DNA of 64,000 nt, taken from an uncultured bacterium. GTDB taxonomy: Bacteria; Patescibacteriota; Saccharimonadia; Saccharimonadales; OFTM59. This document shows, piece after piece, positions 43,166 through 56,796 of the stretch (positions are counted from its first letter, which is position 1; each line of letters begins with the position of its first letter). Location of the stretch: the NCBI GenBank assembly GCA_966685145.1, contig CBKXXB010000001.1, positions 633-64,632 of the forward strand, written 5' to 3'. Made by a program: the position numbers and the translations under genes. The notes beneath the pieces were generated by a model. That model saw nothing but the letters and a program-made list of their open reading frames with translations. It did not search any database and was not told where the DNA came from.

Positions 43166-43630
43166 TTGTCCGCTATGAGTAAAAAACTGCTTATCATTTT
43201 GATTATCCTAAGCCTTATCCTTGCTGGGCTCGGGTATATACTACTGCGGCCAGAAACTGACTCGTCCCCTTCCGTAGCCGCTCCCATCAATGAATCGGTT
43301 GGAGTATTGAGTTCTGGCAATAAGGGTTCCTACGTTGAATATTCGAGTGACATCATAGAAAAGACTTCAGGTCAGAAAGTTCTGTTCTTCCATGCCCCGT
43401 GGTGCCCGCAGTGCCGCTCCATCGAGCAGGGTATTGAAGATCAAGGCGTGCCGGATGGTGTGACCGTAATCAAGGTCGACTACGACAGCAACCAGGCGCT
43501 TCGCAAGAAGTATGGCGTTACATTGCAAACAACTTTTGTAAAAGTTGATGACCGCGCTAACTTGGTAGATAAGTATGTAGCCTACAATGAACCGACTTTC
43601 GACGCGGTCAAACGTAACTTTTTAAAGTGA
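43166..43630 (+). CDS. Membrane-anchored thioredoxin-like protein (TlpA/ResA-like)
   Basis: 154 aa. N-terminal TM and WCPQC active site (FFHAPWCPQCRS). Confidence 0.65.
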   Translation: MSAMSKKLLIILIILSLILAGLGYILLRPETDSSPSVAAPINESVGVLSSGNKGSYVEYSSDIIEKTSGQKVLFFHAPWCPQCRSIEQGIEDQGVPDGVTVIKVDYDSNQALRKKYGVTLQTTFVKVDDRANLVDKYVAYNEPTFDAVKRNFLK

Positions 43631-44370
43631 TGGAACTATTCGTTATATCCTTTCTCGCCGGCGTCCTCACCGTAGCAGCACCTTGCATACTGCCACTTCT
43701 ACCTGTTATTGTCGGCGGCTCAATTGCCAGAACCGGTGATACCAAGGATCAACAGAAAAATTGGTATAGACCTCTTATAGTTGCCCTCAGCTTAGCCGTT
43801 TCCGTCATTATATTCACGCTGCTCCTAAAGGCCACCACGACGTTCCTCGGCGTTCCACAAACGGTTTGGCAAGTTATTGCCGGAATAATCGTAGCCGGGC
43901 TAGGGATTAATTTTGTATGGCCGGAGCTCTGGGAAAAAATTGCTCTTAAGACGGGGCTTCATATGGGGGCTAACAAATTCTTAGGCAAAAACGTCACAAA
44001 GAGAGGTCTAGGCGGCGATGTAATTACCGGCTTTGCTCTTGGTCCAGTCTTTAATAGCTGTAGCCCGACCTATGCATTGATAGTCGTTACTGTACTGCCC
44101 GCTTCGTTTATTACAGGCCTTTCGTACTTAGTCGCATATGCGGCTGGTCTTGCTGGCATGCTTTTGCTGGTGACGTATCTCGGGCAATCTGTCGCAGCCA
44201 AGCTTGGCTGGCTTGCAAACCCTACTGGCTGGTTTCGCCGCACAGCCGGACTACTTTTTATTATTGTCGGAATATCTGTAGTAGCAGGACTGGATAAAAA
44301 AGTTCAGACGTATGTGCTTGAGCGCGGCTGGTATGATCCGGTTTCGCGTCTCGAGCAATCTTTAGATTAG
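43627..44370 (+). CDS. ccdA: Cytochrome c-type biogenesis protein CcdA (DsbD transmembrane-domain family)
   Basis: 247 aa, polytopic. Conserved Cys in TM1 (AAPCILPLLPV) and a second Cys (FNSCSPTY). It overlaps the thioredoxin-like gene's stop. Confidence 0.7.
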   Translation: MMELFVISFLAGVLTVAAPCILPLLPVIVGGSIARTGDTKDQQKNWYRPLIVALSLAVSVIIFTLLLKATTTFLGVPQTVWQVIAGIIVAGLGINFVWPELWEKIALKTGLHMGANKFLGKNVTKRGLGGDVITGFALGPVFNSCSPTYALIVVTVLPASFITGLSYLVAYAAGLAGMLLLVTYLGQSVAAKLGWLANPTGWFRRTAGLLFIIVGISVVAGLDKKVQTYVLERGWYDPVSRLEQSLD

Positions 44371-44451
44371 CGATCAATATTGAGATAAAATACAGCATCA
44401 TTACACCCCCGGTGTTCACTACGGCGTATGGTTGTGTTTAAATGAGGATTA

Positions 44452-44973
44452 ATGAGACGTCCGATTGCTATGATTGCGGCAGCTGGGATTTCTCTTGGAG
44501 CAGCAACGCCACTTGCTGACGGAGAAAGAGTGCTGGGTGGCCCTGCAGAAGCCGAGCCAACGGTTGAGCTGCTTTACAGAGAGGTTCAGCAAGACATCTT
44601 GCCGCGCCTTGGGACCGCAGGCCTAAAATTAGTAGAGCTGGTGCGCGATGATACTATTGGCCATGTAGCGCTCTTGCTAACATTTGATTCTTATTGCGGT
44701 ACGCAATTTTCATTCGAGACGGACGACTATACTCCCGAGCGTGATGCATCTGTAGGCTTTACGCTATACGGTCGATTAGCAGATCTACAGGACAGGTCCA
44801 AGATAAACGGCCATGCTATGTGGGACGGAACCATCGGACACGGCGATAATGTGGCGCATACTCCTTTTATATACCAGCCAGGCAACAATGAAAATGCAGA
44901 TCAGGTGGTAGAGCACATGAGGCATAACTCAGCCTTAGCCTGCGCTCAATTTCCGGACACCCCCAACCTTTAA
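44452..44973 (+). CDS. Hypothetical secreted protein (ORFan)
   Basis: 173 aa with a signal-peptide-like N-terminus (IAMIAAAGISLGAATPLA). No motif. Confidence 0.45.
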   Translation: MRRPIAMIAAAGISLGAATPLADGERVLGGPAEAEPTVELLYREVQQDILPRLGTAGLKLVELVRDDTIGHVALLLTFDSYCGTQFSFETDDYTPERDASVGFTLYGRLADLQDRSKINGHAMWDGTIGHGDNVAHTPFIYQPGNNENADQVVEHMRHNSALACAQFPDTPNL

Positions 44974-45018
44974 TCCTTACTAGTATTATGTACGTTTTTA
45001 TGTTATAATAGCGCTCCT

Positions 45019-46194
45019 ATGGATTTTGGAGCTTTTGAGCGCAATGTGTATGAACTGGCTGCCAATCTACGGGCAACACCAGTCGGCGAGAGCATTGATG
45101 ATTATCAAAAGTACCTGGGTCATCAGATAGCCCAGGCTATCAACACGAACCGCGATGAGCTTAGGGCCGAGTATCGGCTTGAGCCCAGCACAGATCTTGT
45201 CGACCGCCTGCAGCAACGGCTTGGAACCATTGCCGTACAATCCGATGAGGACACACGCGAGGGTTTGAGCGCTCTGGAGTGGGCACTAAGAGAAGATATC
45301 GAACATCGTCGTAAAATTGCCGAGTGGCTTGTGTCGGTCATCCCGAAAATGGAAAAGACGCAGACAAATTACCGGCGCGTAATTAAGTCTCTTCTTAATA
45401 AGCACGATCTTGTATATACAGAAGATGACATGCAGACAGCTGAAGAGGTTATGAACCCGCCCCGCCACGCTCACCTTGAGAGGGAAATAAAGAAAACGAG
45501 CGTTGACGAACTCGAAGACTATGAGTTAACCATAGTAGCTGAGGGGTTACTTAAAATCCTGGCCAAATTTGCACGACAAGGGCAACGGGTAAGGCAAGTT
45601 GACATGTATTCTCAACCAGACTTTATAAAGGTCGTGAGGTTAGTGAGCCCGGATGTGCCCGTTCGTCAAGCGCTTCACACAGCTTGGGGCATACTTACGG
45701 CATTCTTTGAGGACGAAGACCCTGACTACCAGCTATTCTCTGTAGAGGGCAAAGGTTTCAGCGGCAACTATATACTCAACGATCCGGATCTTGTCGAGGG
45801 AATCTGGGGCACAGAAGACGACACCGCCGAACAGCAGCCTGCAGATGCCGAGGAAGAGACCGAACGCGTCCGTCCATACCAAGGCCGCATAGTACGCATC
45901 ACCCGCAATAAATTGATACTGGATTCCGGTGATTACATACCACTCGAAGACGATGTACAGAGAGCAGCCGCACAACGGCTTTTAGACCGTGGGGCAGACT
46001 TTATCAGCACTGGCAGGCTCAGCCAGGAGATTTCAGAAGAGCTTCGTCAACCGCGCAGCGCCGTTGAGGAAAAGGCCCGCGAACTATTAAAATCGCTTGG
46101 GCCTAATTATCTCGAACGTCGCCTGAACCGCAAGAAAAACAAGGCTCTAGTTCGAATTCGTCCTAATGCCCGCGGTGTCATCCAGCCGAGATAG
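45019..46194 (+). CDS. Hypothetical protein (391 aa, ORFan)
   Basis: Long ORF with no assignable motif. It is convergent with the next gene, with only 1 nt between the two stop codons. Confidence 0.45.
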   Translation: MDFGAFERNVYELAANLRATPVGESIDDYQKYLGHQIAQAINTNRDELRAEYRLEPSTDLVDRLQQRLGTIAVQSDEDTREGLSALEWALREDIEHRRKIAEWLVSVIPKMEKTQTNYRRVIKSLLNKHDLVYTEDDMQTAEEVMNPPRHAHLEREIKKTSVDELEDYELTIVAEGLLKILAKFARQGQRVRQVDMYSQPDFIKVVRLVSPDVPVRQALHTAWGILTAFFEDEDPDYQLFSVEGKGFSGNYILNDPDLVEGIWGTEDDTAEQQPADAEEETERVRPYQGRIVRITRNKLILDSGDYIPLEDDVQRAAAQRLLDRGADFISTGRLSQEISEELRQPRSAVEEKARELLKSLGPNYLERRLNRKKNKALVRIRPNARGVIQPR

Positions 46195-46195
46195 A

Positions 46196-47140
46196 TTAGT
46201 CAGACAACTCGTACACGTCGGTGCCGAGAAAGAGATCTTCTCTTTCAGCTATATCAATGGCCCAGTTCCACAGCCTATTAATGGCCGATGTCCCGTTAAG
46301 CTTTGCCATGGCCGGGCAGCCCTGAGTTTCGAATGTTACGGCCGCTGACCCTACTGTCCTTGCTGAAGACGTGGATGGTGATTGTATTTGTACGATGGGC
46401 TGTTTGAAATCAACATACTCAGTACCGTCGCCTCTGGTTCTTAATTGAAGTGCTTGGACGTCTATAACAAACTGGGGGTCCAATGTCTCGCCGGCTAACT
46501 GCATCAATAATCCCGCAGCAGGCAGATGCTGGACATTTACAGCAGCCGCACGATTGATAAGAATGCTGCTTTGCCTGGCTATCTTAGCTATATCTTGCGA
46601 TTCAGCAGCCGGCAATTCGTTATTTGTGCGGTGGTTTCTTACAATACGGCTTACAGCCCGCAGAGCAGTTGTGGTTTCCTTTGCTGCAGTGCCTATACCT
46701 GATCGGATTAATTTTTCGGGTGACTCGTACCTGGCTCCTTCATAAGTTGAATTAAACACACTACAGACGTAACCCAGCCTTTGGTGTAGCGGAGTGGCTT
46801 CTTCTTCGTGCTTAGTAAGTACTTTTGCTGTCGCTGCACCTAGGGTAGGTCTGAGGAATTCATCCAATTCATAAAAGTCCCGCAGAGATGCCACGCGCTC
46901 CTCGCCCCAGTCAATGAGCCCGTAAGGCGGGAACTCCTGCTTGCCTTCAAGAGCCACGTCTAAAACCTCGTCTATAACGACTGCCAGTAAAGCGTATAAT
47001 TCAGGCCGCATTTCTTTGGCTCTGGCTACATTTTCCTGAAGATTCACTTCTTCGGGCATTAGGCCAATGTCGGGGACAGGCTCTATCAATGCTGGATCGG
47101 CTTTGTAGTCTTTAGCCATACTGACATAGGACGCACTCAT
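46196..47140 (-). CDS. Hypothetical protein (314 aa, ORFan)
   Basis: Long ORF with no assignable motif. Confidence 0.45.
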   Translation of the reverse strand: MSASYVSMAKDYKADPALIEPVPDIGLMPEEVNLQENVARAKEMRPELYALLAVVIDEVLDVALEGKQEFPPYGLIDWGEERVASLRDFYELDEFLRPTLGAATAKVLTKHEEEATPLHQRLGYVCSVFNSTYEGARYESPEKLIRSGIGTAAKETTTALRAVSRIVRNHRTNNELPAAESQDIAKIARQSSILINRAAAVNVQHLPAAGLLMQLAGETLDPQFVIDVQALQLRTRGDGTEYVDFKQPIVQIQSPSTSSARTVGSAAVTFETQGCPAMAKLNGTSAINRLWNWAIDIAEREDLFLGTDVYELSD

Positions 47141-47205
47141 AATTCAATATTCTACCACTTTTATATACTTTTAGCAAGTTTGTCGTCAAAGAGGATGAAG
47201 ATGAT

Positions 47206-47448
47206 GTGCCGGAAATTTGCCTCACGGTATCACACCCTGCAGTCGAAAGAGAGCACCGGATATATGATGACCGCGGCAAGGTTGTTAGCCGCCTAGTTCT
47301 TCAGGAACTATACGAGGCTCTCACCATAATTGTGACGTATGCGAACTCAGAGAGTGCCGGCAACATTCCACCCATAGATAGCAGCGACTTCCCCATTCCT
47401 GTTATTGACGCAGAGTTTCAAGCGTTGGCTTTGCGGCTCCAAAGTTAA
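47206..47448 (+). CDS. Small hypothetical protein (80 aa)
   Basis: Short ORF in the gap between two minus-strand genes. Coding status uncertain. Confidence 0.3.
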   Translation: MPEICLTVSHPAVEREHRIYDDRGKVVSRLVLQELYEALTIIVTYANSESAGNIPPIDSSDFPIPVIDAEFQALALRLQS

Positions 47449-47463
47449 ACGATTAGTTTGATA

Positions 47464-47976
47464 TCACGAAGTTTCCACAGCTACAGTTGGGTCTTTATCT
47501 AAGCTCACATAGTAAGCCGCGTCGCCATAAACTTCATACTCCAACCTAAGATATTCCTTATCCTCCGTTACGTCGGTACTGAACACTATGGGAGCACGGT
47601 CATCATTGGGTGGTACGATAACCGCCAGCTCATCGAACACGAGCTGATGTAACGGCGGCAATGAGAGCTCGGTTGCTTCATCATCGACCGCACTAGCTCT
47701 TATTCGCGTGTATGGTAATGGTTGAGCATTTGTAAAAGGATTTCTATAAACAAATACTATACCTCTTGTTGGTCGGAAAACTCCATCGTATCTAACCCTC
47801 CCGCCACTACGTCTAAGGTCAGGATTAGCCGCGACCTGATCAATGACATGTTGGGATAAGGTCACAAACGCACCAAGGGCTCTTGCTGTTTCTCTGTAAT
47901 GAGCGTAAATACCCGGGTCGGTATCAGGAGTTAGCAAGCGCCCCGGTGAGTAAGGTATAGGCTCTAGAGATCTCAT
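47464..47976 (-). CDS. Hypothetical protein (170 aa, ORFan)
   Basis: ORF with no motif. Part of a same-strand run of ORFans. Confidence 0.4.
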   Translation of the reverse strand: MRSLEPIPYSPGRLLTPDTDPGIYAHYRETARALGAFVTLSQHVIDQVAANPDLRRSGGRVRYDGVFRPTRGIVFVYRNPFTNAQPLPYTRIRASAVDDEATELSLPPLHQLVFDELAVIVPPNDDRAPIVFSTDVTEDKEYLRLEYEVYGDAAYYVSLDKDPTVAVETS

Positions 47977-48013
47977 TCGTAATTACTCCGCTTGGATTAT
48001 TTGCACTTACTGA

Positions 48014-48457
48014 TTAGGATGATGGGCCCAATATTTCAAGGCGCACGGTCCATTGATCACGGCCCCATTGGTTGTTTTGGTCTTGTGTAGTTTCGATGGC
48101 AGTATCATATCTGTCCCTGCCAGCAGCTTCGGCTACGACTTGCATAGCTGCTAGTGAACCTACTGCCCATGACTCATTCATAACTGTCCATGTGACGCTA
48201 GGTACCGTTGCTTCACGGTGACATCCAAGCAACACGCCGCCTATTTTCCGACCTTTAGCTTGCATGAATTCAGGTACAACAGCCCTGGCATAATCCAGTG
48301 CCGCCTCCGGATCAATGACGCCAACAGTTCCGCGTAACTGCGCAGCGGCCTCGGTTACTCTTTCGGCGTCCAAGGTTGCTGCTGCTTCGGGATAATCTTC
48401 AGAAGTAGGCCTCACCGGAAGCTTGGACCTAACTATAGGATCATTCATCAGACTCAT
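48014..48457 (-). CDS. Hypothetical protein (147 aa, ORFan)
   Basis: ORF with no motif. Confidence 0.4.
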   Translation of the reverse strand: MSLMNDPIVRSKLPVRPTSEDYPEAAATLDAERVTEAAAQLRGTVGVIDPEAALDYARAVVPEFMQAKGRKIGGVLLGCHREATVPSVTWTVMNESWAVGSLAAMQVVAEAAGRDRYDTAIETTQDQNNQWGRDQWTVRLEILGPSS

Positions 48458-48594
48458 AGTATCCCCTGTTTCTCCATACAGGTATACGCTTTAATCCTTA
48501 GTCAAGCAAGCATAAGTAGCTTCGGTTTTTTAGCCACTGTCGAGTAGGGTCGATTAAAATGTGCACATTACCGAGTTATGATAAGAAACTGTGA

Positions 48595-49434
48595 TTAACT
48601 GTGCAACGCAGAAGCTGCGCGGTCGTACAGTGGCTGCGATAAGACCGGATAAGGAATTGTAGCTCCGTGCGCAGCCGGTTCGCGCAAACTTCGACCCTCT
48701 ACGCGGGGAGTATAAGCCCCATAACCTGCACCAATAAAAGCAATGTCGCCTAGGATGCCCGCGGAATTACAGGCAGCTTCTTTACGCCTGTTATAGTCAA
48801 GAGGCGGATCGCTAGGATCAAATTCACTATCTACGACAGACATGTCCATCGCCTGGCAATATTCAACGCCAGCATCTCGTATCATGGTCTCTGGTTCTTG
48901 CGAAATTGCTCCGATTGCAGCAGTAATCCTTAAATCTTGTGTAAGGAACATTCTGGTGACAGAACCGGATGAATTGCCCACTACCGGCGCAGAACGGACA
49001 TCCGAGTCCTTCGCTACATATGTCATAGCAATGACGGCATCCGGACTAGGCATTGATAACCTGATCTGCTTGGTTACTCCATTGACTGTAGTAGTTATTG
49101 GTTCACTCTCTGCGAGTAATGTCATCAGTTTAAAGCCTATGTTGTGTTGCAGAGCCGCAACTCTAGAATCAGCGCCTCCCAGAATACCTATCCAAGTACC
49201 TTCAGTTGTTTGTCTGTAGCCTGATTCCCTCAGTGATTGTCTTAACTGTTCATTCGCTTCGGCATCATTAGTGGGAGCAGAAGCATTAGGTGCTTGCCAG
49301 GTAGTGGTAGGTCTTGATTCTACTTCAGGGGTTTCGCCCCCGCCACAGCCAGCAAGGACTCCTGTCATCAAAGTCGCCGCGACAAATTTTCTTCCTCTCA
49401 TATACGCTCTTTTTACCCTTATCGACTTGGACAT
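48595..49434 (-). CDS. Putative lipoprotein (279 aa, ORFan)
   Basis: N-terminal basic stretch and hydrophobic segment ending LAGCGGG, a lipobox-like L-A-G-C. Confidence 0.5.
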   Translation of the reverse strand: MSKSIRVKRAYMRGRKFVAATLMTGVLAGCGGGETPEVESRPTTTWQAPNASAPTNDAEANEQLRQSLRESGYRQTTEGTWIGILGGADSRVAALQHNIGFKLMTLLAESEPITTTVNGVTKQIRLSMPSPDAVIAMTYVAKDSDVRSAPVVGNSSGSVTRMFLTQDLRITAAIGAISQEPETMIRDAGVEYCQAMDMSVVDSEFDPSDPPLDYNRRKEAACNSAGILGDIAFIGAGYGAYTPRVEGRSLREPAAHGATIPYPVLSQPLYDRAASALHS

Positions 49435-49472
49435 TATGCGCCGTGTATGTTTATTTGTCCAAAAAGTTCAGG

Positions 49473-50747
49473 CTATGTAGCATTTATGTTTAAGCTCGCT
49501 TGATGAGTACCTTGAGCTTCGATTTCCTTGGTGTACTGTGCGATACGTGCACCTATTTCCCTGTCAAAATATTCAAAACCTGGCTGCAGGGCAGCTGCGT
49601 ATGCCAGCTTGTCGACTTTAGATACAGGACCAGACTTTCCCTTACCGAAGGGATGAACGATGAAGTAACGCTCCATTATGTTGCCGTAGGTCGTGATAAG
49701 GCGTGTGCCTAGACGCTGGCGCGAACCGACAGTTATTACACACTTTTCCGCTCGCTCCATCCCCAAGTGTCGTGGGGAAACCAAAACCACATGCGGACTG
49801 TACTGAGCATACATGCCTTGGTCCACGTAGTTTTTAACCTGAACTGGAATAATTTCATTTCTGCCAGGGATCATAGAACATAGCAGAATATCCGCACGAA
49901 AGCTTGGTTCTGAAGGATCGCGTAATCGGCCCCGCTCGAAGTCATCTGGAGCGGCAATAGGAAGATACGGCAGGTTCCGGGCCATCACCCATTCCTGTAA
50001 GACCAAGAGTGCCTCTGCTTCGGTTATTGCTGAGCACAAAAGGCCTAAGTGATCGCCCCATTCGTCGGCATGGTGCATCCAATTTGGCGTGTGCCTATCA
50101 TGAGGACGAGTTACCTTTACGCGCATATCTACTACATCCTCCAACTGCAGCTTCCCGGTCGAGTCATAATCGTTTTCAATGGCAATTACGCCGCGGTAAC
50201 CATTTAGCGCGTTGCCCAATATGCGTCGCTCATTCGTTGTGACGTCTTTTATTTCTCTTGCGACTTTCTCATCAGTAAGCGGCCCCTTTGCCGCTCGTCG
50301 ATTAATTTTGCTAATGGCTGAATTGACGAGTTTCCATGAATAGCCGACAAGATTAAAGTGAATAGTGTTTTTATCAATTTCTGAAATGTCGGACAGGGCT
50401 TTTTCCGGCAGTGTATGCGTCTCATCAACAGGACGCCTTGGTAGAGACCTAGCGCCGGGCGGCGGCATCGAGCTTCGTAGGTTAGCAGTCTCTTGCCTAT
50501 GGTTATGTCGGAACCGCCTCACCGATTCCGCCATATCAAGCAGCGCTCCATCTGCCGTAACAACGACTGGAGAAGGCGGACGGTCTGCCAAACTGTCGAT
50601 GTGGCCGTCAAGATATAGGGCCACAACCATATCTGCCAGACCGTTATTTATAACTTCATTAACCTTTTGCTGCGCAATCATTTCTTCGACTGTGTAGTCT
50701 GGGTGCTCAGGCAGTCTAAAGGCTGATACGTACTCATGTCCGTCCAT
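49473..50747 (-). CDS. Hypothetical protein (424 aa, ORFan) with a His/Asp-rich segment
   Basis: Largest ORF of the block, with no family assignable. It contains HDRHTPNWMHHADEWGDH, a possible metal-binding patch. Confidence 0.5.
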   Translation of the reverse strand: MDGHEYVSAFRLPEHPDYTVEEMIAQQKVNEVINNGLADMVVALYLDGHIDSLADRPPSPVVVTADGALLDMAESVRRFRHNHRQETANLRSSMPPPGARSLPRRPVDETHTLPEKALSDISEIDKNTIHFNLVGYSWKLVNSAISKINRRAAKGPLTDEKVAREIKDVTTNERRILGNALNGYRGVIAIENDYDSTGKLQLEDVVDMRVKVTRPHDRHTPNWMHHADEWGDHLGLLCSAITEAEALLVLQEWVMARNLPYLPIAAPDDFERGRLRDPSEPSFRADILLCSMIPGRNEIIPVQVKNYVDQGMYAQYSPHVVLVSPRHLGMERAEKCVITVGSRQRLGTRLITTYGNIMERYFIVHPFGKGKSGPVSKVDKLAYAAALQPGFEYFDREIGARIAQYTKEIEAQGTHQASLNINAT

Positions 50748-50868
50748 TAGATACTTATTCTATAATATTTCCTTGCATTTGCAACCATAAGGTGCTGCTA
50801 TTCTAGCTGCCGCCCAGCGGGTTGGGTGGAGCCCCTTAGCGTTAGTGTGTATTTCTGCCCCTGAAAAC

Positions 50869-51003
50869 CTAAATTTTGAAGAGGCCCTTGATGGCACGTT
50901 TGCGTGCAGTTGTTAGTTTTCGCTTGCCTTTTGTAACCGGAGAATACTTTTGCTTAATGGCCCTCTTTACAGCGCCTTTCTTAGAATACTTGAATAGTCC
51001 CAT
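50869..51003 (-). CDS. Basic micro-protein (44 aa) downstream of the E1-like gene
   Basis: Not in the ORF track. Translation MGLFKYSKKGAVKRAIKQKYSPVTKGKRKLTTARKRAIKGLFKI, about one third Lys/Arg. A strong SD (AGGAGGGG) lies 5 nt upstream of the ATG. Confidence 0.4.
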   Translation of the reverse strand: MGLFKYSKKGAVKRAIKQKYSPVTKGKRKLTTARKRAIKGLFKI

Positions 51004-51062
51004 ATCCCCTCCTCATTATTTAGCTTAAGCATATCATCTCTGCTCTGTTTTTGAATGGCTGG

Positions 51063-51872
51063 TTAGGTTAGCCATTTGTGACAATAGGGGCAAGGAGCAG
51101 TGTCTTTTTTGCTACTCCTAAGCGAGTTTAGGTCAGCCCTGTAAACCAGATGTTTGGCTGGAGCCGCCAAGCCGGTTATGAGTTTCACGGCTTCAGTAAT
51201 GGCCAAGGAGGCAACTGCACCGTTTAGACTAACTACCGAAGGACCACTCTTTTTTAAATCCTTAGCATCAACTCCGTAGATTTTGGCCTGTGTTTCTAGC
51301 TCAGCATTATTCATCCGATGAACCCTTATGTCCTGTTGGCTTAGCTCATCAAGGCAATACAAACAGCCAAGGCTGGTACCGGCAATTACTACACGACCAC
51401 CGTACGCAGCAGGTAAGTTTTCATCAGTTTGTACATCAGTTGCTACATCTATATACACTTTCCTTAACTCAGCAGCAGTTTGAGTTGCAAGTAACCGGGC
51501 ATAATCATTGTCTAATCCGCCCATGATTACATCCACGTCTGCTAATGTGGCTCGTAAATCGATGTCTTGTAAATAGTTATCAACTGTGGCAACGTCAGCT
51601 TTTGGTTGGATATTATGAATCAGACGTGCCGCAACTTCTACCTTCAGCCGCCCGATGTCTTCGGCTGTTGCACCGACCAAGCGGTTGAGATTTTTATTCT
51701 CTACTTTATCTCCATCGACCAATATAAATGTGCGAGCACCGAGATAGGCGAATTGCTGCGCAAAATGAGATCCAAGCCCGCCTAGGCCAAGTAGCGCAAA
51801 CTTTGTGCGTTCGATTTTCTTTTGGCCTTTTTTGCCGAAGAGTTCAGTTTGTCGAATATAACGGTCACTCAT
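51063..51872 (-). CDS. ThiF/MoeB-family E1-like adenylyltransferase
   Basis: Likely start MSDRYIRQTELFG at 51872. An alternative ATG at 51932 would overlap the JAB gene. Nucleotide-binding motif LLGLGGLGSHFAQQFAYLG. Two CxxC pairs (GCLYC, CPYC) consistent with the structural zinc site of MoeB/ThiF-type E1s. No other cysteine. The ATG overlaps the JAB stop region (ATGAGTGA). Confidence 0.75.
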   Translation of the reverse strand: MSDRYIRQTELFGKKGQKKIERTKFALLGLGGLGSHFAQQFAYLGARTFILVDGDKVENKNLNRLVGATAEDIGRLKVEVAARLIHNIQPKADVATVDNYLQDIDLRATLADVDVIMGGLDNDYARLLATQTAAELRKVYIDVATDVQTDENLPAAYGGRVVIAGTSLGCLYCLDELSQQDIRVHRMNNAELETQAKIYGVDAKDLKKSGPSVVSLNGAVASLAITEAVKLITGLAAPAKHLVYRADLNSLRSSKKDTAPCPYCHKWLT

Positions 51873-52374
51873 ATGCACCTTTTTGGATAGCGGACAGGCT
51901 GAGACCTGTTGGCCGAGTCGAATTGTCTTCAACGCGCAAACCAGAAAGCGTCTCCGGCTTATCCACTATGTGCCAGACGAGTGCGTCAAAGTCGTTTTCA
52001 GTAAAAACTAGCGCAACATATGGCCGACCTTTAAGCCGCCAGAGCATATGAGGAACCAACTCGGCTAGCCCGTCCATATCTGTCAGACTAAACTGAGCAG
52101 ACCATCCAAATCCATTATGAGCGTGCGCTTCGATCACCACGTAATTATTGGCATGCGCGTGTTTAATAATTTCAGGCCGCACATGATCTGCTAAGCCGAG
52201 ACCATTCCAGTTATGATGCGCGTAATCCTTTTCAGTCAGAAGCTTAACTTCCTTGACCATAAGCCTTTGCCCTGAGTCATCCATCAACGCAAACAAGAAG
52301 GCAATTTCCTCCGATTGACTAGCCAGGTAATCCTTCATCACTCTATAATCAGCGCGGGGAATCTGTAGGTCCAT
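51865..52374 (-). CDS. JAB/MPN (JAMM) metallopeptidase
   Basis: 169 aa. Upstream Glu (SEEIAFLFAL), then IEAHAHNGFGWSAQFSLTD. The ExnHxHx7-10Sx2-5D arrangement is characteristic of JAMM isopeptidases. Its start is 1 nt after the E2-like gene's stop. Confidence 0.7.
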   Translation of the reverse strand: MDLQIPRADYRVMKDYLASQSEEIAFLFALMDDSGQRLMVKEVKLLTEKDYAHHNWNGLGLADHVRPEIIKHAHANNYVVIEAHAHNGFGWSAQFSLTDMDGLAELVPHMLWRLKGRPYVALVFTENDFDALVWHIVDKPETLSGLRVEDNSTRPTGLSLSAIQKGAYE

Positions 52375-52375
52375 A

Positions 52376-52762
52376 CTAATTAATCTCCGCTAAACGATGT
52401 TTGAATGAGTGGGCAAAATGGAGCATACCCATGCCCTCACCCGGCACGCTACCGGGTTGCCAGTTTTCTAACTCCCAAGAAAATTTAAGCCACTGTCCAT
52501 CTCTGGGAACATCGCTGGAATACTCACTATTGCTTGGTTTATCACCGTTTGCCAGCTGCAAACCATCCCGTACCCAAAATGCATATGGCCTTTCTCCCGG
52601 AAAACCTGCCGGGATCTGAAATGCAATCTCGGCAGACTGCCGCCCCCAACCTATCGGCAGCAGGTAATTCTTGATGATTATCCAGTTCCCTTCCGCAACA
52701 TGCACAAGGTCTGGCCAGCGACTCCTGAGTGTCGCCAGTGAATGCTCAATCCACTCTTGCAT
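52376..52762 (-). CDS. E2/UEV-like (UBC-fold-like) protein lacking cysteine
   Basis: 128 aa. IAFQIPAGFPGERPYAFWV resembles the UBC/UEV 'FxIxFPxxYPxxPPxVxF' beta-hairpin signature. The protein has no Cys at all. It lies 5 nt downstream of the Ubl gene and abuts the JAB gene. Confidence 0.45.
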   Translation of the reverse strand: MQEWIEHSLATLRSRWPDLVHVAEGNWIIIKNYLLPIGWGRQSAEIAFQIPAGFPGERPYAFWVRDGLQLANGDKPSNSEYSSDVPRDGQWLKFSWELENWQPGSVPGEGMGMLHFAHSFKHRLAEIN

Positions 52763-52767
52763 AGCAG

Positions 52768-53016
52768 CTAGCCCCGCTTAAAGCCAATCTTTCGACTGAA
52801 ACCGTTCCCGGGCTTTACATCTACGGCTTCATTCTCGCGTAGCTCCCGCTCACTATTGTCCTTGAAGTCAATGATGAGTATTGGCTGATTATCGGTTATA
52901 CCAACTAACGTGCGAATTTCCGGCGGCGTAATTGTATCCTTATGCCAGTCATAATCTGTGCCTTCAAAGTTAATAGTATGCTTTGGCTTTTTCTCGTTAT
53001 TCTTCTCATTACCCAT
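52768..53016 (-). CDS. Small ubiquitin-like (beta-grasp, multiubiquitin-domain-like) protein with C-terminal Gly
   Basis: 82 aa: MGNEKNNEKKPKHTINFEGTDYDWHKDTITPPEIRTLVGITDNQPILIIDFKDNSERELRENEAVDVKPGNGFSRKIGFKRG. It ends ...KRG followed directly by the stop codon, so a terminal Gly is available for adenylation. Strong SD (AAGAGGAGAG) 6 nt upstream. It is the first gene of a four-gene block with E2-like, JAB and E1-like partners. Confidence 0.5.
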   Translation of the reverse strand: MGNEKNNEKKPKHTINFEGTDYDWHKDTITPPEIRTLVGITDNQPILIIDFKDNSERELRENEAVDVKPGNGFSRKIGFKRG

Positions 53017-53095
53017 TCTAACTCTCCTCTTTTATTAGATGTTTTTGCTTTCCTCACACCTGGCCTCGGTGCGCCTCAAGACAATTTAATAGTAG

Positions 53096-53109
53096 CGCTA
53101 CATGTAGCG
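53096..53109. promoter_or_regulatory. Perfect 14-bp palindrome in the leader of the Ubl operon
   Basis: CGCTACATGTAGCG reads identically on both strands. It lies about 80 bp upstream of the Ubl start codon in a 424-bp non-coding spacer. Confidence 0.3.
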
Positions 53110-53397
53110 TTTAGCAATAGCATTTAGGCACAATATGTAGTTTTATTTGCAATGACTTTTGCCAGTTTCCAACTACTTTCCACCGCTTTTGAATGGTTGG
53201 ATTCATTCGTCCAGGCACTGATAAGTCCTGATGAGTGAATGTCAAAAGCACAATTGATAGCGGAGGATTTGTTTGAGTCCGAAGGACGAGTTGTCCGAAG
53301 CATTGTGGCTTCTGCCGGTGAAATCATAAAGAGCCGGCAGTCGCCTGTCGTTTCTTTGGATGCTTTCTTTGTCAATACAAGAAAGTATCTTGCGCCA

Positions 53398-53430
53398 GCA
53401 ATGAAACGGCGGCAATGAAACGGCGGCAAT
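53398..53430. repeat. Tandem direct repeat (14-bp unit, about 2.4 copies)
   Basis: GCAATGAAACGGCG GCAATGAAACGGCG GCAAT, read directly from the sequence. It sits at the distal end of the Ubl-operon leader, directly downstream of the 90-aa acidic ORF. Confidence 0.6.
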
Positions 53431-53440
53431 ACTATTACCT

Positions 53441-53713
53441 CTACGTATCTGTGTATTTCGGATGTTGCGGTTCCGGATAGGCTTCCAGGCCAAGAGCCTG
53501 TGCCTCGTGTATGATTTCGTTAGCCGCGGCTTCGGCTGACAGCTCAGAAGAATCCTCCACTCTCAGCCTGACCTGTACACCCCCACCATCTACAGGAACC
53601 ATGCTATCCAGAAGCGCGCTCATCAGTTCGTGAAAATCCAGACCGCCTTCTTCAGCTCTAACCACAAAATCAGGATCAGCACCAGCTTTTATCTCAGGGT
53701 TTCCATCGCTCAT
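53441..53713 (-). CDS. Small acidic hypothetical protein (90 aa)
   Basis: MSDGNPEIKAGADPDFVVRAEEGG... is Asp/Glu-rich with no Cys. It lies 23 bp downstream of the tRNA gene on the same strand. Confidence 0.4.
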   Translation of the reverse strand: MSDGNPEIKAGADPDFVVRAEEGGLDFHELMSALLDSMVPVDGGGVQVRLRVEDSSELSAEAAANEIIHEAQALGLEAYPEPQHPKYTDT

Positions 53714-53736
53714 AGATGACCTTATCTTACATTATA

Positions 53737-53809
53737 TGCCCCTGGCAGGATTCGAACCCGCGACCAACTCCTGCGAAGGAGACGCTCTAATCCGCTGAGC
53801 TACAGGGGC
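53737..53809 (-). tRNA. tRNA gene (isotype uncertain; anticodon arm irregular)
   Basis: Minus-strand sequence GCCCCTGTAGCTCAGCGGATTAGAGCGTCTCCTTCGCAGGAGTTGGTCGCGGGTTCGAATCCTGCCAGGGGCA. The 7-bp acceptor stem (GCCCCTG/CAGGGGC), D arm (GCTC...GAGC) and T arm (GCGGG-TTCGAAT-CCTGC) are canonical. No CCA is encoded. The anticodon arm folds only as a 4-bp stem with a 6-nt loop (TCTCC/TTCGCA/GGAGT), or as a 7-nt loop TTCGCAG (anticodon CGC) with a poorly paired stem. Confidence 0.6.
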
Positions 53810-53909
53810 GACTTCTCAATTATACATTTTTGTATCTATTTACTCTTTAGAAGCCCGTCTGCTATAGGTTATTGACTTTTTAGGGATTTTAGGGTAGAAT
53901 ATTCATAAT

Positions 53910-55142
53910 ATGACCGGTGGAAATGTGGAATTACCTTTCGGCGGTGAAATGGAGCCGACCGATTCAGCAGCACCATTATTGCAGGGTGTCGCCTTTGATG
54001 TAATACGAGTTCCTGAACGTCAGGATGCAATAGACGATATTCTCTCCCATCGACGCTGGAGCCCCGAGCGTCGCGTCAAAGAACTGAATACCAAAATCAA
54101 TGACGAATGGGACGACGAGCTGGGTATATCTTACACAGGAATTGAAGGCGAGGAGTTACCAGGCCTTACCATCCATGGCGTAGCCGAAAAGCTGGCATTG
54201 TCAGCTTGCGATGTGACAGATGGGAACTTCGAGGGTGCCAACTTAAACGCCGCCGTGATGACTGCCGTTGCTTTCCGCAGACTGCGAGCCCGCCATGCCA
54301 ATATGGATCATACCGTTTCTCCCCTGTCTTCTTTTGAAGGTGCTGATCTGGAAGACGTCACAGCCATCGAAGGTAATTTTGTCTTCGGAGACCTTAGTGA
54401 CGTCAAGGCGCGCGGTCTGACACTCACGAGCGGTTATCTATTCGGTACGAAAGGTTTGGAAAGAATCATCGAAGATGTGGCCGATATCCGTACTGCCCGG
54501 GTACTGCTGCAGGCAGCCGGCGTCACTGATCCATCCGAAACTCTGAGGGAAGCCTTGGCTGATCGCTTTATGGGCGTACCTGCCGCCCACATAGAGCGAC
54601 AGGTATCCCCTGTCCGCGTCATTCGGCAGGTTAACGCAGCCAACACCTTGCCCGACGAAAAGCGATTGGCTGGCGCAGTGCTTGATGACGTCATCCTAGC
54701 CGGGGCAGGTTTGCACGCCCGGATTATGACCGGCAGCATCTGGCACAAGGTACGGGCACGCGGTTTGGAATTCAGGGGCTCACGGGCAGCCGGATCAGTC
54801 GTACTTGATTCAGACTTGCAGAACATTGATGCAACCGGTCTATGGGTACCTGGCATGTTCGCAGCTAACACGAGCTTCAGGAACAGCGACATGACACGCG
54901 GCAACATGGCTGGTGCTGTTTTTTATAACTGCGATATGACGAATGTCGATACCGAGCGGACGAATGTCGATGGTATCGTCGTCATTGGAGGCCGACCGCC
55001 AGAGTTTGATGAAGAAACCATGAAGCGACTAAAGATTCTCGAGCTTGGCGACCTCCCTACCGCAGTTGCAGAGATAGTCTCGCGTATGGGCGCTTTGTCA
55101 ATTAGCGGACGCTCTACGGCTAACCGCGAGCTCGAACAATAG
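53910..55142 (+). CDS. Pentapeptide-repeat protein
   Basis: 410 aa. Multiple A(D/N)LxX-type pentapeptide units (GANLNAAVMTAV..., FEGADLEDVTAIEGNFVFGDLSDV..., FRNSDMTRGNMAGAVFYNCDMTNVD). Confidence 0.65.
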   Translation: MTGGNVELPFGGEMEPTDSAAPLLQGVAFDVIRVPERQDAIDDILSHRRWSPERRVKELNTKINDEWDDELGISYTGIEGEELPGLTIHGVAEKLALSACDVTDGNFEGANLNAAVMTAVAFRRLRARHANMDHTVSPLSSFEGADLEDVTAIEGNFVFGDLSDVKARGLTLTSGYLFGTKGLERIIEDVADIRTARVLLQAAGVTDPSETLREALADRFMGVPAAHIERQVSPVRVIRQVNAANTLPDEKRLAGAVLDDVILAGAGLHARIMTGSIWHKVRARGLEFRGSRAAGSVVLDSDLQNIDATGLWVPGMFAANTSFRNSDMTRGNMAGAVFYNCDMTNVDTERTNVDGIVVIGGRPPEFDEETMKRLKILELGDLPTAVAEIVSRMGALSISGRSTANRELEQ

Positions 55143-55161
55143 TTGCTCGAGAAGGATTTTT

Positions 55162-55794
55162 ATGCGTGAGCCGCTGTTTACACCCCGCAATCAGCCAGCA
55201 CGCGGTTTAATTATTGAAGGTGATCCTGAGTCGCGCCAAAAAGCACGCCTGTCCGCGGCTCTGCACCGCGCCATAAACCTCGCAATTGAAAGCGCATTTA
55301 GATATGGCGTTGATTTGCCTGTCGGTGCTGTAGCGCTGCAGAGTGAGGAAATTATAGGGCGAGGATTTGCTGGTGATATGCGATTCGGGCAACCACCGCT
55401 TCATGCCGAAATCATGGCACTACTGGACACACGATTTGATGTACAAGGAGGCAAGCCGGATACTGTGGTCGTGTCGACCGAGCCCTGCGTAAGATGCCAG
55501 GATAATCTGGCAGGAGAATCAAGTCTGAAACGTGTAGCGTTTGGTCTTAGTCGCAAGGATTTATCGGACAAAGGATTAATCAGACCCCATGGCGAAGACA
55601 TATTTGAGAGAGCAGAACGAGTCGGACTGCCATATGAGATTACAAGAATTGAAGACAACGACCTAAGGCTTGCGGGACTTACTATCTTTGATCATGTCAC
55701 CCGCGATCCCGGCACAGGGCTTGTAGAGGTTAATTCCGAAACTCTTAACGAGGCTCTTATGAGCTTAAATGAACATGGCCCTTCCGGCTCCTGA
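55162..55794 (+). CDS. CDA-fold zinc deaminase, TadA-like (tRNA adenosine deaminase family) with N- and C-terminal extensions
   Basis: 210 aa. VGAVALQSEEIIGRGFA ... PLHAEIMAL ... TEPCVRCQDNL ... RVAFG. The HAE and PCxxC zinc motifs closely resemble TadA. It carries extra N-terminal (about 40 aa) and C-terminal (about 60 aa) sequence. Confidence 0.65.
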   Translation: MREPLFTPRNQPARGLIIEGDPESRQKARLSAALHRAINLAIESAFRYGVDLPVGAVALQSEEIIGRGFAGDMRFGQPPLHAEIMALLDTRFDVQGGKPDTVVVSTEPCVRCQDNLAGESSLKRVAFGLSRKDLSDKGLIRPHGEDIFERAERVGLPYEITRIEDNDLRLAGLTIFDHVTRDPGTGLVEVNSETLNEALMSLNEHGPSGS

Positions 55795-55933
55795 TAACTG
55801 AATATTAAAAACACGGGCCAGGGCTTGCTTGTGCTTCTTGAGTGCGACTAATTGCCAGCGCAATCTGTTTCTGATTAGCGTACAGGTAGATTATGTTGTA
55901 TTATGATGAACAAAGTAAGCGCAGGAACAAAGC

Positions 55934-56149: not shown

Positions 56150-56219
56150 GACTTGGGCTAGCGAATACCACAACAATAATTACTTGCTAATGGTTAAATA
56201 TTAACGCTACAATTAGCGT

Positions 56220-56780: not shown

Positions 56781-56796
56781 GTTTTATCAATCCGTT

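What the first reader, a model, noticed from the sequence alone, without database searches (positions are those of the whole stretch)
44452..53809. tRNA-adjacent block of about nine ORFans with slightly elevated GC: candidate acquired island carrying the Ubl module
From 44452 to the tRNA at 53737-53809 essentially every ORF (173, 391, 314, 80, 170, 147, 279, 424, 44 and 90 aa) lacks any recognisable motif. By eye the region is GC-richer (low 50s %) than the flanking housekeeping DNA (mid/high 40s %).

The run ends at a tRNA gene, a classic integration hotspot. The Ubl-E2-JAB-E1 module and a basic micro-protein sit at its tRNA-proximal end.

Two convergent ORFans (45019-46194 and 46196-47140) have stop codons 1 nt apart, leaving no room for terminators.

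I found no integrase/recombinase and no direct repeat of the tRNA 3' end at the distal boundary. If this is an island, it is degraded or integrated by another route.
Basis: partly seen in the sequence, partly recalled or inferred. Interest (0 to 1): 0.6.

Follow-up and report, generated by a model that had tools for sequence, protein, structure and literature searches.

The report
Lineage-specific 15-kb insertion in Saccharibacteria
The block of unannotatable genes is the larger part of a roughly 15-kb segment that this Saccharibacteria lineage has between two housekeeping genes (ccdA and mgsA) that sit side by side in its nearest relatives, so it is probably an acquired accessory island, but an ordinary one, and it was not integrated at the tRNA.

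Summary
The window is a Saccharibacteria (CPR) genome. The listed ORFs, the tRNA, the Ubl-E2-JAB-E1 module and the 1-nt stop spacing are all real. The claimed GC contrast is not: the block is 48.3% GC, the left flank 46.4% and the right flank about 50%, and codon usage is not shifted. Only the GC-normalised tetranucleotide signature dips, at 45-52.5 kb (z -2.4 and -3.0).

The decisive evidence is synteny. In the two closest genomes found, ccdA is followed directly by mgsA (22-34 nt). Here they are 15,083 bp apart. A closer relative (MgsA 88%) carries different cargo upstream of mgsA, including an IS1595 transposase and a homolog of the 424-aa ORF.

So the island is about 44371-59428. The tRNA lies inside it, and pcm and the LamG gene are cargo too. 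No integrase, att repeat or phage or plasmid homolog was found.

The "ORFans" belong to small uncharacterised families, about 40 clusters for the 314-aa protein. Their homologs occur singly elsewhere, so the block is not a co-travelling module.

The Ubl cassette is Bub/6E-like: its E2 has no cysteine but keeps the catalytic Ser, and there is no BubE. The tRNA is Arg-type with a 6-nt anticodon loop.

The parts
44371..59428 (.). Lineage-specific inserted segment (about 15.06 kb) between the ccdA stop and the conserved mgsA upstream element
   Evidence: ccdA and mgsA are adjacent (22-34 nt) in L011 and L014 but 15,083 bp apart here. A conserved CGCTATA(T)ACTAA element just upstream of the mgsA ATG marks the right junction.
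43627..44370 (+). ccdA (DsbD_TM family), the left flank
   Evidence: Pfam hit. Trx-ccdA is conserved in 73-82 related loci.
44452..44973 (+). 173-aa exported protein with a signal peptide, a conserved Cys pair and a WDGTIGHGDNVA motif
   Evidence: Family of about 6 clusters; alignment A4. One homolog (P0021) has a lipobox.
45019..46194 (+). 391-aa protein of unknown function, a small family (about 11 clusters)
   Evidence: Homologs in L178 and L180 occur without the other block genes.
46196..47140 (-). 314-aa protein with an invariant Cys275 in a TxGCPA motif; family of about 40 clusters that includes bacteria with a fuller metabolic repertoire
   Evidence: AF2 model pLDDT 92. Only weak cytochrome P450 fold matches.
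47206..47448 (+). 80-aa ORF, doubtful gene
   Evidence: Called in only some of the assemblies of near-identical DNA. No family hits.
47464..47976 (-). 170-aa protein, essentially an orphan
   Evidence: One weak relative (27% identity, E 1e-4) in 1.84 billion representatives.
48014..48457 (-). 147-aa protein, tiny family
   Evidence: Two related clusters, 42% and 34% identity.
48595..49434 (-). 279-aa predicted lipoprotein (lipobox LAGC)
   Evidence: Read from the sequence. No family hits. No large-database homolog search was run.
49473..50747 (-). 424-aa protein with a PD-(D/E)xK-like core (E245, D286, Q303-x-K305 on an alpha-beta-beta-beta-alpha-beta segment); candidate nuclease
   Evidence: Five homologous clusters; invariant residues; AF2 secondary-structure order. 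A homolog lies between R-M systems in L010 and upstream of mgsA in L009. Foldseek against PDB found nothing.
50869..51003 (-). 44-aa very basic, Lys-rich micro-protein downstream of E1
   Evidence: ORF called in all assemblies. No family hits.
51063..51872 (-). E1 (ThiF-type single adenylation domain; 269 aa from the ATG, 289 aa from an upstream TTG)
   Evidence: Pfam ThiF 1.8e-39. The NLNR arginine, two CxxC motifs, a crossover region with a Tyr and no Cys. 34% identical to the Tenderia plasmid E1.
51865..52374 (-). JAB/JAMM peptidase; its last 8 nt overlap the E1 start
   Evidence: HAHx9SxxD motif. 41% identical to the Tenderia JAB.
52376..52762 (-). Cysteine-free E2 (Prok-E2_E); Ser95 aligns with the BubB catalytic Ser
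   Evidence: Pfam 28.8 bits. Alignment with Tenderia, Bradyrhizobium and C. koseri E2 domains; zero Cys.
52768..53016 (-). 82-aa Ubl (single multiubiquitin-type beta-grasp) ending ...FKRG
   Evidence: Multi_ubiq 21.6 bits. 42% identical to the third Ubl domain of the Tenderia fusion, which has FKRG at the Ubl/E2 junction.
53017..53440 (-). Non-coding leader of the Ubl operon: 14-nt unit ATTGCCGCCGTTTC in 2.3 copies (53398-53430) and the 14-nt palindrome CGCTACATGTAGCG (53096-53109)
   Evidence: Read from the sequence and repeat D1. The ORF in this gap has aberrant codon bias (B=0.59).
53441..53713 (-). 90-aa acidic ORF starting 23 nt downstream of the tRNA
   Evidence: No family hits.
53737..53809 (-). 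Arg-type tRNA-like gene with a 6-nt anticodon loop (UUCGCA)
   Evidence: ARAGORN 'tRNA-??? (cg)'. Infernal alignment shows a 1-nt loop deletion and a U.U mismatch. Identical in 5 assemblies. Closest to Saccharibacteria tRNA-Arg(GCG/CCG).
53910..55142 (+). 410-aa pentapeptide-repeat protein (island cargo)
   Evidence: Pfam. Absent from all related loci.
55162..55794 (+). 210-aa CDA-fold deaminase, weakly TadA-like (island cargo)
   Evidence: Pfam dCMP_cyt_deam_1 1.3e-10. NCBIfam TadA 38 bits, far below the cut-off.
55934..56780 (+). 71-aa and 186-aa ORFs of unknown function (island cargo)
56797..57399 (-). pcm (protein-L-isoaspartate O-methyltransferase), inside the inserted segment
   Evidence: Pfam PCMT 9.8e-51. 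Not found near ccdA or mgsA in any relative.
57542..59383 (+). 613-aa Laminin_G_3 protein, inside the inserted segment
   Evidence: Precomputed Pfam. No relatives in the fetched loci.
59454..60635 (+). mgsA/rarA, the right flank
   Evidence: 84%, 81% and 88% identical to L011, L014 and L009.

Best explanation
The block is the left two-thirds of a roughly 15-kb accessory segment (about 44371-59428). It occupies the short ccdA-mgsA spacer, which is a local hotspot of gene gain and turnover in this Saccharibacteria clade.

The cargo is a mosaic, not one mobile element:
- a self-contained four-gene Ubl conjugation cassette of the Bub/6E kind, lacking BubE;
- a solitary 424-aa candidate PD-(D/E)xK nuclease that in relatives sits at the same hotspot or among restriction-modification systems;
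- exported or surface proteins (173 aa, 279-aa lipoprotein, LamG);
- four small cytosolic families of unknown function;
- a decayed or atypical Arg-type tRNA;
- a pentapeptide-repeat protein, a CDA-fold deaminase and pcm.

Shown: the segment is absent from the equivalent site in relatives; the cargo differs in a closer relative; the segment is present in every assembly of this population; its genes occur singly elsewhere.

Inferred:
- The DNA was gained by HGT, probably from other Patescibacteria given the near-native GC and codon usage.
- It entered without a site-specific integrase, for example by recombination after DNA uptake or by IS-mediated events. It may have arrived in more than one step, because only 45-52.5 kb is atypical in oligonucleotide signature.
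- The Ubl cassette would work like Bub: E1 adenylates the Ubl C-terminal Gly82, transfer goes through a crossover-loop Tyr and E2 Ser95 oxyesters to a target lysine, and JAB reverses or processes the conjugates. The role is in defence or stress.
For: Synteny:
- L011 is colinear with the window over 10 kb (w34580 ... Zincin1-Trx-ccdA), and mgsA then starts 22-34 nt after ccdA. L014 shows the same ccdA-mgsA junction, preceded by Zincin1-Trx-ccdA, on a 6-kb contig.
- L012 has ccdA next to metK. L100 and L102 have Zincin1 within 0.7-3 kb of mgsA-metK.
- The same TATACTAA-type element precedes the mgsA ATG in the window, L011 and L009.

Hotspot: L009 (MgsA 88%, metK 81%) has Pup ligase, Pup, a 680-aa gene, a 56% homolog of the 424-aa ORF, a 277-aa gene, an IS1595 transposase and Replic_Relax upstream of mgsA.

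Absence elsewhere: no island gene appears in about 160 ccdA- or mgsA-anchored loci.

Not a module: homologs of the 391, 314, 173 and 424-aa proteins each occur alone within +-10 kb, and the neighbours of the 424-aa homologs are unrelated to one another.

Composition: the tetranucleotide dip has z -2.4 and -3.0 at 45-52.5 kb.

Fixation: all 7 contigs that carry the identical MgsA also carry island genes upstream of it.

Mobility of the cassette type: its closest annotated relative is on a mobilizable Ca. Tenderia plasmid next to a tyrosine recombinase.

Background: genomic islands are reported as frequent in Patescibacteria, mostly exchanged within the phylum (PMC12455944).
Against: - There is no GC or codon-usage shift.
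- There is no integrase, transposase, relaxase, att repeat or target-site duplication at either junction.
- There are no relatives on viral contigs, phages or plasmids for the 424, 314 and 391-aa proteins.
- Polarity (gain here or loss in relatives) rests on a few genomes ranked only by MgsA identity, not on a phylogeny.
- The best relatives are only 62-88% identical in flanking proteins, and gene order in this clade decays fast.
- L011 and L014 come from one MAG that looks like a mixed bin.
Confidence: 0.6

Rival explanations
1. The segment is ancestral and vertically inherited, and it was deleted in the lineages of L011, L014, L012, L100 and L102 during CPR genome reduction. Its genes look orphan because they evolve fast.
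For: - GC, GC3 and codon bias are native.
- There are no mobility genes or repeats.
- The 424-aa gene is shared with L009 in the same neighbourhood at 56% identity, while the flanking genes are 70-88% identical. This fits a fast-evolving resident gene.
- The segment is present in every assembly of this population.
Against: - It needs several independent losses that each leave a clean ccdA-mgsA or ccdA-metK junction.
- Apart from the 424-aa homolog, the cargo of L009 is entirely different and includes an IS1595 transposase and Replic_Relax.
- The tetranucleotide signature is atypical at 45-52.5 kb.
- The closest annotated relatives of the Ubl cassette are on proteobacterial plasmids.
Confidence: 0.2
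2. This is the first reader's model: a degraded integrative element that inserted at the 3' end of the tRNA (53737) and extends to ccdA, having lost its integrase and distal att repeat.
For: - The tRNA 3' end faces the block.
- The compositional anomaly is confined to the ccdA-to-E1 part, whereas 52.5-60 kb is typical.
- The tRNA is damaged, as a relic might be.
- Bub operons in E. coli and Citrobacter lie in elements inserted at tRNA genes (PMC11601596).
Against: - No integrase or integrase remnant was found, and the non-coding gaps are too short to hide one.
- There is no partial copy of the tRNA 3' end anywhere in the window at up to 3 mismatches in 20 or 29 nt.
- The empty site in relatives has no tRNA between ccdA and mgsA, so the tRNA is itself imported or relocated.
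- The block genes do not co-occur elsewhere.
Confidence: 0.1
3. The block is a single functional unit, for example a multi-gene defence system, in which the Ubl cassette works with the downstream same-strand genes (44, 424, 279, 147, 170, 314 aa).
For: - The genes run in the same orientation with short gaps from the Ubl gene to the 170-aa ORF.
- The 424-aa family lies next to R-M systems in L010.
- A Lys-rich micro-protein sits directly after E1.
Against: - The closest cassette (Tenderia) has none of these partners.
- Homologs of the 424, 314, 391 and 173-aa proteins occur without a Ubl cassette and without one another.
- No PADLOC model matches beyond the generic E1.
Confidence: 0.08

Closest known systems
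Genomic islands and variable hotspots in Patescibacteria/CPR genomes (PMC12455944)
   Same: Lineage-specific multi-gene segment at a fixed chromosomal site. The site is empty in relatives and holds different cargo in a sister lineage. The content is mostly hypothetical, defence-like and surface proteins.
   Different: No integrase, no att repeats, no GC shift. The site lies between two protein genes, not at a tRNA. The tRNA is cargo.
Type I Bub (6E.1) bacterial ubiquitination-like operons (PMC11601596)
   Same: Gene order Ubl-E2-JAB-E1. Multiubiquitin-type Ubl ending in Gly. Cysteine-free E2 whose Ser95 aligns with the catalytic Ser. Single-domain ThiF-type E1 with a Tyr and no Cys in the crossover region. 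JAMM peptidase.
   Different: Four separate genes instead of the BubAB and BubCD fusions. No DUF6527/BubE. The E2 His and Asp that accompany the Ser are replaced by Glu and Tyr. One Ubl domain. The host is a CPR bacterium.
Ubl-E2 / JAB / E1 cassette on the Ca. Tenderia electrophaga plasmid CP013100.1
   Same: Closest annotated relative: Ubl 42%, E2 31%, JAB 41%, E1 34% identity. Separate, overlapping JAB and E1 genes. FKRG at the Ubl C-terminus. SW(D/E) in the E2. No DUF6527 within about 5 kb.
   Different: In Tenderia three Ubl domains are fused to the E2. The cassette is on a mobilizable plasmid beside a tyrosine recombinase and KfrA.
Bil (bacterial ISG15-like) defence systems
   Same: Same four roles in the same order (Ubl, E2, JAB, E1).
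   Different: The Bil E2 has a catalytic Cys, and the Bil E1 is a large IAD-AAD-CYS protein. Here the E2 has no Cys, the E1 is a single domain of 269 aa, and the PADLOC BilD match is weak and limited to the adenylation domain.

Membership tests
tRNA-targeted integrative genomic island | Tyrosine or serine recombinase (integrase) at one end | tested here: not met
   No Phage_integrase or recombinase hit in any ORF of 44-59.4 kb (precomputed Pfam). The non-coding gaps are 424 nt or shorter.
tRNA-targeted integrative genomic island | Direct repeat of the tRNA 3' end (attL/attR) at the distal boundary | tested here: not met
   The 20-mer and 29-mer of the tRNA 3' end occur only once at up to 3 mismatches. 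No shared words of 8 nt or more between the junctions.
tRNA-targeted integrative genomic island | The same tRNA is present at the empty site in relatives | tested here: not met
   L011 and L014 have ccdA and mgsA 22-34 nt apart with no tRNA. No Arg tRNA follows ccdA in 76 loci.
Genomic island in the broad sense (lineage-specific acquired segment) | Absent from the orthologous site in related genomes | tested here: met
   (L011, L014, L012, L100, L102). No island gene lies in about 160 anchored loci.
Genomic island in the broad sense (lineage-specific acquired segment) | Atypical composition | tested here: inconclusive
   GC, GC3 and codon bias are not shifted. The normalised tetranucleotide correlation is the lowest in the window at 45-52.5 kb, z -2.4 and -3.0.
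Genomic island in the broad sense (lineage-specific acquired segment) | Polarity: gained here, not lost in relatives | not testable with these tools
   This needs a species phylogeny from whole genomes. Only the ranking by MgsA identity is available (L009 88 > L011 84 > L014 81 > L100 76%).
Bub (6E/DUF6527) operon | E2 without a catalytic Cys but with the invariant Ser | tested here: met
   The E2 has 0 Cys. Ser95 (FSWE) aligns with the Ser of SRH in the C. koseri BubAB and of SWH in Bradyrhizobium. Prok-E2_E scores 28.8 bits.
Bub (6E/DUF6527) operon | Type I accompanying residues His (+2) and Asp near the E2 Ser | tested here: not met
   The window has Glu at +2 and Tyr at the Asp column. Tenderia has Asp at +2 and Tyr.
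Bub (6E/DUF6527) operon | E1 crossover loop with an invariant Tyr and no Cys | tested here: inconclusive
   A single Tyr (KIYGVD) and no Cys lie in the region between CLYC and SGPSVV. It is conserved in Tenderia (KVYGVD) and falls within 2 alignment columns of a C. koseri Tyr. No structural check was made.
Bub (6E/DUF6527) operon | BubE serine protease (DUF6527/PF20137) in the operon | tested here: not met
   No DUF6527 hit in any ORF of the island at E<=0.05. It is present in the Bradyrhizobium and C. koseri operons and absent near the Tenderia cassette.
Bub (6E/DUF6527) operon | Multiubiquitin-type Ubl with a C-terminal Gly | tested here: met
   Multi_ubiq 21.6 bits, just below the cut-off. 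42% identical to a Tenderia Multi_ubiq domain. The protein ends in FKRG.
Bil system | E2 with a catalytic Cys and an E1 with IAD-AAD-CYS architecture | tested here: not met
   The E2 has no Cys. The E1 is 269-289 aa with a single ThiF domain. The PADLOC BilD hit (1.3e-7) covers only the adenylation core.
Prophage or phage-derived island | Phage structural, replication or lysis genes, or relatives on viral contigs | tested here: not met
   No PHROGs hit. No relatives in IMG/VR for the 424, 314, 391-aa and JAB proteins or in INPHARED. The BFVD fold search on the 314-aa model found nothing.
PD-(D/E)xK nuclease (424-aa protein) | alpha-beta-beta-beta-alpha-beta core with E...D...(D/E/Q)xK | tested here: inconclusive
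   Invariant E245, D286, Q303 and K305 fall on H231-257, E287-291 and E299-304 of the AF2 model. The model has only pLDDT 67, and Foldseek against PDB and the PDB profile search gave nothing.

The most novel reading that the evidence does not exclude
The BubE-less, unfused Ubl-E2-JAB-E1 cassette (Ser-Glu E2), shared so far only with a Tenderia plasmid, would be a distinct third type of oxyester-based bacterial ubiquitination-like system working in an ultra-small episymbiont. Its local partners would be the Lys-rich 44-aa micro-protein as acceptor or adaptor and the 424-aa PD-(D/E)xK-like protein as effector. The neighbouring Arg-type tRNA with a 6-nt anticodon loop and the TadA-like deaminase could be functional accessories rather than debris.
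Probability: 0.1. Interest if true: 0.7.

Novelty: new member of a known kind. Interest (0 to 1): 0.35.

Why it matters
It gives a clean case of a gene-gain hotspot (the ccdA|mgsA spacer) in a Saccharibacteria clade, with an empty site and alternative cargo. This shows how genomes of about 1 Mb still turn over accessory and defence-like genes without recognisable integrases.

It also places a Bub-like ubiquitination cassette in the CPR and defines a BubE-less subtype.

It supplies several compact uncharacterised families for follow-up. One of them, the 314-aa family, has a very confident structure model and an invariant cysteine.

As an island, however, it is ordinary.

Tried and rejected
- A concatenated-ORF query to the search for homologous proteins returned nothing, not even the self matches. 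That search was wasted. The same trick worked with the exhaustive phmmer search.
- ccdA-anchored (80 loci) and mgsA-anchored (80 loci) relatives were mostly too diverged for boundary mapping. Only re-screening with all window proteins revealed L011, L014 and L012.
- Family alignments A2 and A3 were too diverse for the search for related loci. The narrower A5 and A6, and A1, found no viral relatives.
- Foldseek against PDB on the 424-aa model gave nothing. On the 314-aa model it gave only weak P450 hits (E>=0.045, TM about 0.2), which I do not accept as an assignment.
- PDB profile searches for the three families gave no credible hit.
- Pfam on all 35 members of the 314-aa family gave nothing.
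- I rejected a conserved two-gene module around the 424-aa gene, because its neighbours are unrelated across loci.
- I rejected a presence/absence polymorphism in this population.
- I rejected a Bil assignment (see the membership test).

Full report
**Organism and observation**

The window is from a Saccharibacteria (TM7, Patescibacteria) genome. The best GTDB matches to its CcdA are Saccharibacteria MAGs, at 66% identity or less. The 424-aa protein occurs on a 926-kb contig.

The 173, 391, 314, 80, 170, 147, 279, 424, 44 and 90-aa ORFs have no credible match in Pfam, PADLOC or PHROGs (the 44-aa ORF was not scanned there). The four that I scanned against NCBIfam also gave nothing credible.

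The Ubl module is real. It has a ThiF E1, a Prok-E2_E E2 above the cut-off and a Multi_ubiq Ubl just below it. The 169-aa protein carries the JAMM motif HAHx9SxxD. The stops of the convergent 391-aa and 314-aa ORFs are indeed 1 nt apart.

**Composition**

- The block is 48.3% GC. The left flank is 46.4% and the right flank 49.9-50%. 19% of equal-sized windows are at least as GC-rich.
- GC3 is 0.447 in the block against 0.469 elsewhere (p=0.13). Karlin codon bias is 0.35 against 0.31 (p=0.25).
- One signal remains. The GC-normalised tetranucleotide usage of the 5-kb windows at 45-50 kb and 47.5-52.5 kb correlates least with the rest of the window. The r values are 0.753 and 0.733, against a mean of 0.825 (sd 0.031), giving z -2.4 and -3.0. 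The stretch from 52.5 to 60 kb is typical.

**Mobility hallmarks**

No integrase, transposase or relaxase was found in 44-59.4 kb. The tRNA 3' end has no second copy at up to 3 mismatches. No direct or inverted repeats flank the block or the larger segment. There are no PHROGs hits. No relatives turned up on IMG/VR contigs, GenBank phages or PLSDB plasmids for the 424-aa (all three collections), 314-aa and 391-aa proteins (IMG/VR and PLSDB).

**Synteny, the decisive evidence**

Most ccdA- or mgsA-anchored relatives are too rearranged to be informative. Screening all window proteins against the fetched loci changed that.
- L011 is colinear with the window for 10 kb up to Zincin1-Trx-ccdA. Its mgsA then starts immediately after ccdA.
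- L014 shows the same ccdA-mgsA junction on a 6-kb contig. The spacers in the two loci are 22-34 nt.
- L012 has ccdA next to metK.
- L100 and L102 have Zincin1 0.7-3 kb from mgsA-metK.

In the window the ccdA stop (44370) and the mgsA start (59454) are 15,083 bp apart. A TATACTAA-type element just upstream of the mgsA ATG is shared by the window, L011 and L009. This places the right junction at about 59428.

The closest relative is L009 (MgsA 88%, metK 81%, SIMPL 70%). It has entirely different genes upstream of mgsA: Pup ligase, Pup, a 680-aa protein, a 56% homolog of the 424-aa ORF, a 277-aa protein, an IS1595 transposase and a Replic_Relax protein. Its contig then ends.

None of the genes between ccdA and mgsA occurs in any other anchored locus. 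That includes pcm, the LamG protein, the pentapeptide protein and the deaminase. All seven contigs that carry the identical MgsA also carry island genes upstream of it, so the segment looks fixed in this population.

My conclusion is that the lineage-specific segment is about 44371-59428. The site behaves as a hotspot: it is empty in some relatives and holds alternative, MGE-bearing cargo in another.

**Are the genes orphans, and do they travel together?**

An exhaustive phmmer search of 1.84 billion representatives used the five ORFs concatenated. It found these numbers of related clusters:
- about 40 for the 314-aa protein;
- about 11 for the 391-aa protein;
- about 6 for the 173-aa protein;
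- 2 for the 147-aa protein;
- one weak hit for the 170-aa protein.

The 424-aa protein has five related clusters. I inspected the contexts of these homologs:
- L009, L010, L091 and L092 for the 424-aa protein;
- L094 and L096 for the 314-aa protein;
- L178 and L180 for the 391-aa protein;
- L179 for the 173-aa protein.

No second block gene lies within +-10 kb in any of them. The neighbours of the 424-aa homologs are unrelated to each other. The block is therefore a mosaic, not a co-inherited module.

**What the individual genes look like**

- *173 aa.* It has a signal peptide, two invariant cysteines and a WDGTIGHGDNVA motif.
- *279 aa.* It has a lipobox.
- *424 aa.* The family has invariant E245, D286, Q303 and K305. 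These fall on an alpha-beta-beta-beta-alpha-beta segment of a medium-confidence AF2 model (pLDDT 67). That is the layout of a PD-(D/E)xK nuclease, but Foldseek and PDB profile searches gave nothing. In L010 its homolog lies between a Dam-type methylase with a small putative endonuclease and a type I R-M system.
- *314 aa.* The family gives a very confident model (pLDDT 92.4). It has an invariant Cys in TxGCPA. Its best PDB and BFVD matches are all cytochromes P450, but they are weak (E>=0.045, TM about 0.2). I treat this as a lead only.

**The Ubl cassette**

The four genes are translationally packed: gaps of 5 nt and 1 nt, then an 8-nt overlap.
- The E2 has no cysteine. Its Ser95 (FSWE) aligns with the catalytic Ser of the SRH motif in the C. 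koseri BubAB and of SWH in Bradyrhizobium. The accompanying His and Asp are Glu and Tyr here (residue roles from PMC11601596).
- The E1 keeps the NLNR arginine. It has a Tyr and no Cys in the crossover region.
- The Ubl ends in FKRG. The same sequence sits at the Ubl/E2 junction of the Tenderia fusion protein.
- The closest annotated relative is on a mobilizable Ca. Tenderia electrophaga plasmid: a [3xUbl-E2] fusion, then JAB, then E1, followed by a tyrosine recombinase and KfrA. Identities are 31-42%.
- Neither that cassette nor this one has DUF6527/BubE. The Bradyrhizobium and C. koseri operons do have it.

I therefore file the cassette as working like a type I Bub system, but not as a full member, because two defining features are not met. 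It is not a Bil system.

**The tRNA**

It has an Arg-type body and is closest to Saccharibacteria tRNA-Arg(GCG/CCG). Its anticodon loop has 6 nt (UUCGCA), and there is a U.U mismatch at the top of the anticodon stem. It is identical in five independent assemblies, so this is not an assembly error. Whether it is a pseudogene or functional cannot be decided from this window.

**Verdict**

The interpretation as an acquired island is partly supported. It fails on the boundaries, the tRNA-integration idea and the GC argument. Genomic islands are already reported as common in Patescibacteria (PMC12455944). This is a new member of a known kind and of moderate-to-low interest. The BubE-less Bub-like cassette and the odd tRNA are the more interesting by-products.

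Noticed in passing
window 53737-53809 (-): Arg-type tRNA gene with a 6-nt anticodon loop (UUCGCA) and a U.U pair at the top of the anticodon stem. It is identical in five independent assemblies. It could be a pseudogene, island cargo or an unusual functional tRNA.
   Followed up: partly
window 55162-55794 (+): CDA-fold deaminase whose best NCBIfam similarity is to tRNA adenosine-34 deaminase TadA (38 bits, far below the cut-off). It lies 1.35 kb from the aberrant Arg-type tRNA.
   Followed up: no
window 46196-47140 (-): The 314-aa family (about 40 clusters, also in bacteria with a fuller metabolic repertoire) gives an AF2 model with pLDDT 92. Its top PDB and BFVD fold hits are all cytochromes P450 but weak. 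It has an invariant Cys275 in TxGCPA and a GxGTAxxET stretch in a long helix.
   Followed up: partly
window 49473-50747 (-); L010 9303-20457: The 424-aa family carries a PD-(D/E)xK-like E...D...QxK signature. In L010 its homolog is sandwiched between a Dam-type methylase with a 189-aa putative endonuclease and a complete type I R-M system.
   Followed up: partly
L009 6008-7705; L179 14364-14576: Saccharibacteria relatives encode a Pup ligase and Pup (ending in GGQ). In L009 these sit upstream of mgsA, at the site where the window has its Ubl cassette, so two different protein-tagging systems occupy one hotspot.
   Followed up: no
window 53096-53109 and 53398-53430: The 424-nt leader upstream of the Ubl gene holds a perfect 14-nt palindrome (CGCTACATGTAGCG) and 2.3 tandem copies of ATTGCCGCCGTTTC. 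These may be operator or regulatory sites. No regulator gene is evident.
   Followed up: no
window about 50750-50870; L004 and L184: In the highest-coverage sample (ERZ27337290) the assembly breaks between the 44-aa and 424-aa genes. This may reflect strain heterogeneity at that point.
   Followed up: no
window 40257-42810: The Pur_DNA_glyco and DUF2207 genes are absent from the otherwise colinear L011 between the w39596 homolog and Zincin1. This is a second, smaller indel close to the island.
   Followed up: no
L011 and L014: MAG OFTM277 holds two diverged copies (ccdA 66% and 62%, MgsA 84% and 81% to the window) of Zincin1-Trx-ccdA-mgsA on different contigs, so the bin probably mixes two related genomes.
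   Followed up: no
window 44452-44973 (+): An exported protein with a conserved cysteine pair lies directly downstream of the thioredoxin-CcdA disulfide-reductant pair. Its homologs elsewhere are not next to Trx-CcdA.
   Followed up: partly
window 62705-62809 (-): SAM-I riboswitch upstream of metK. This is ordinary.
   Followed up: no
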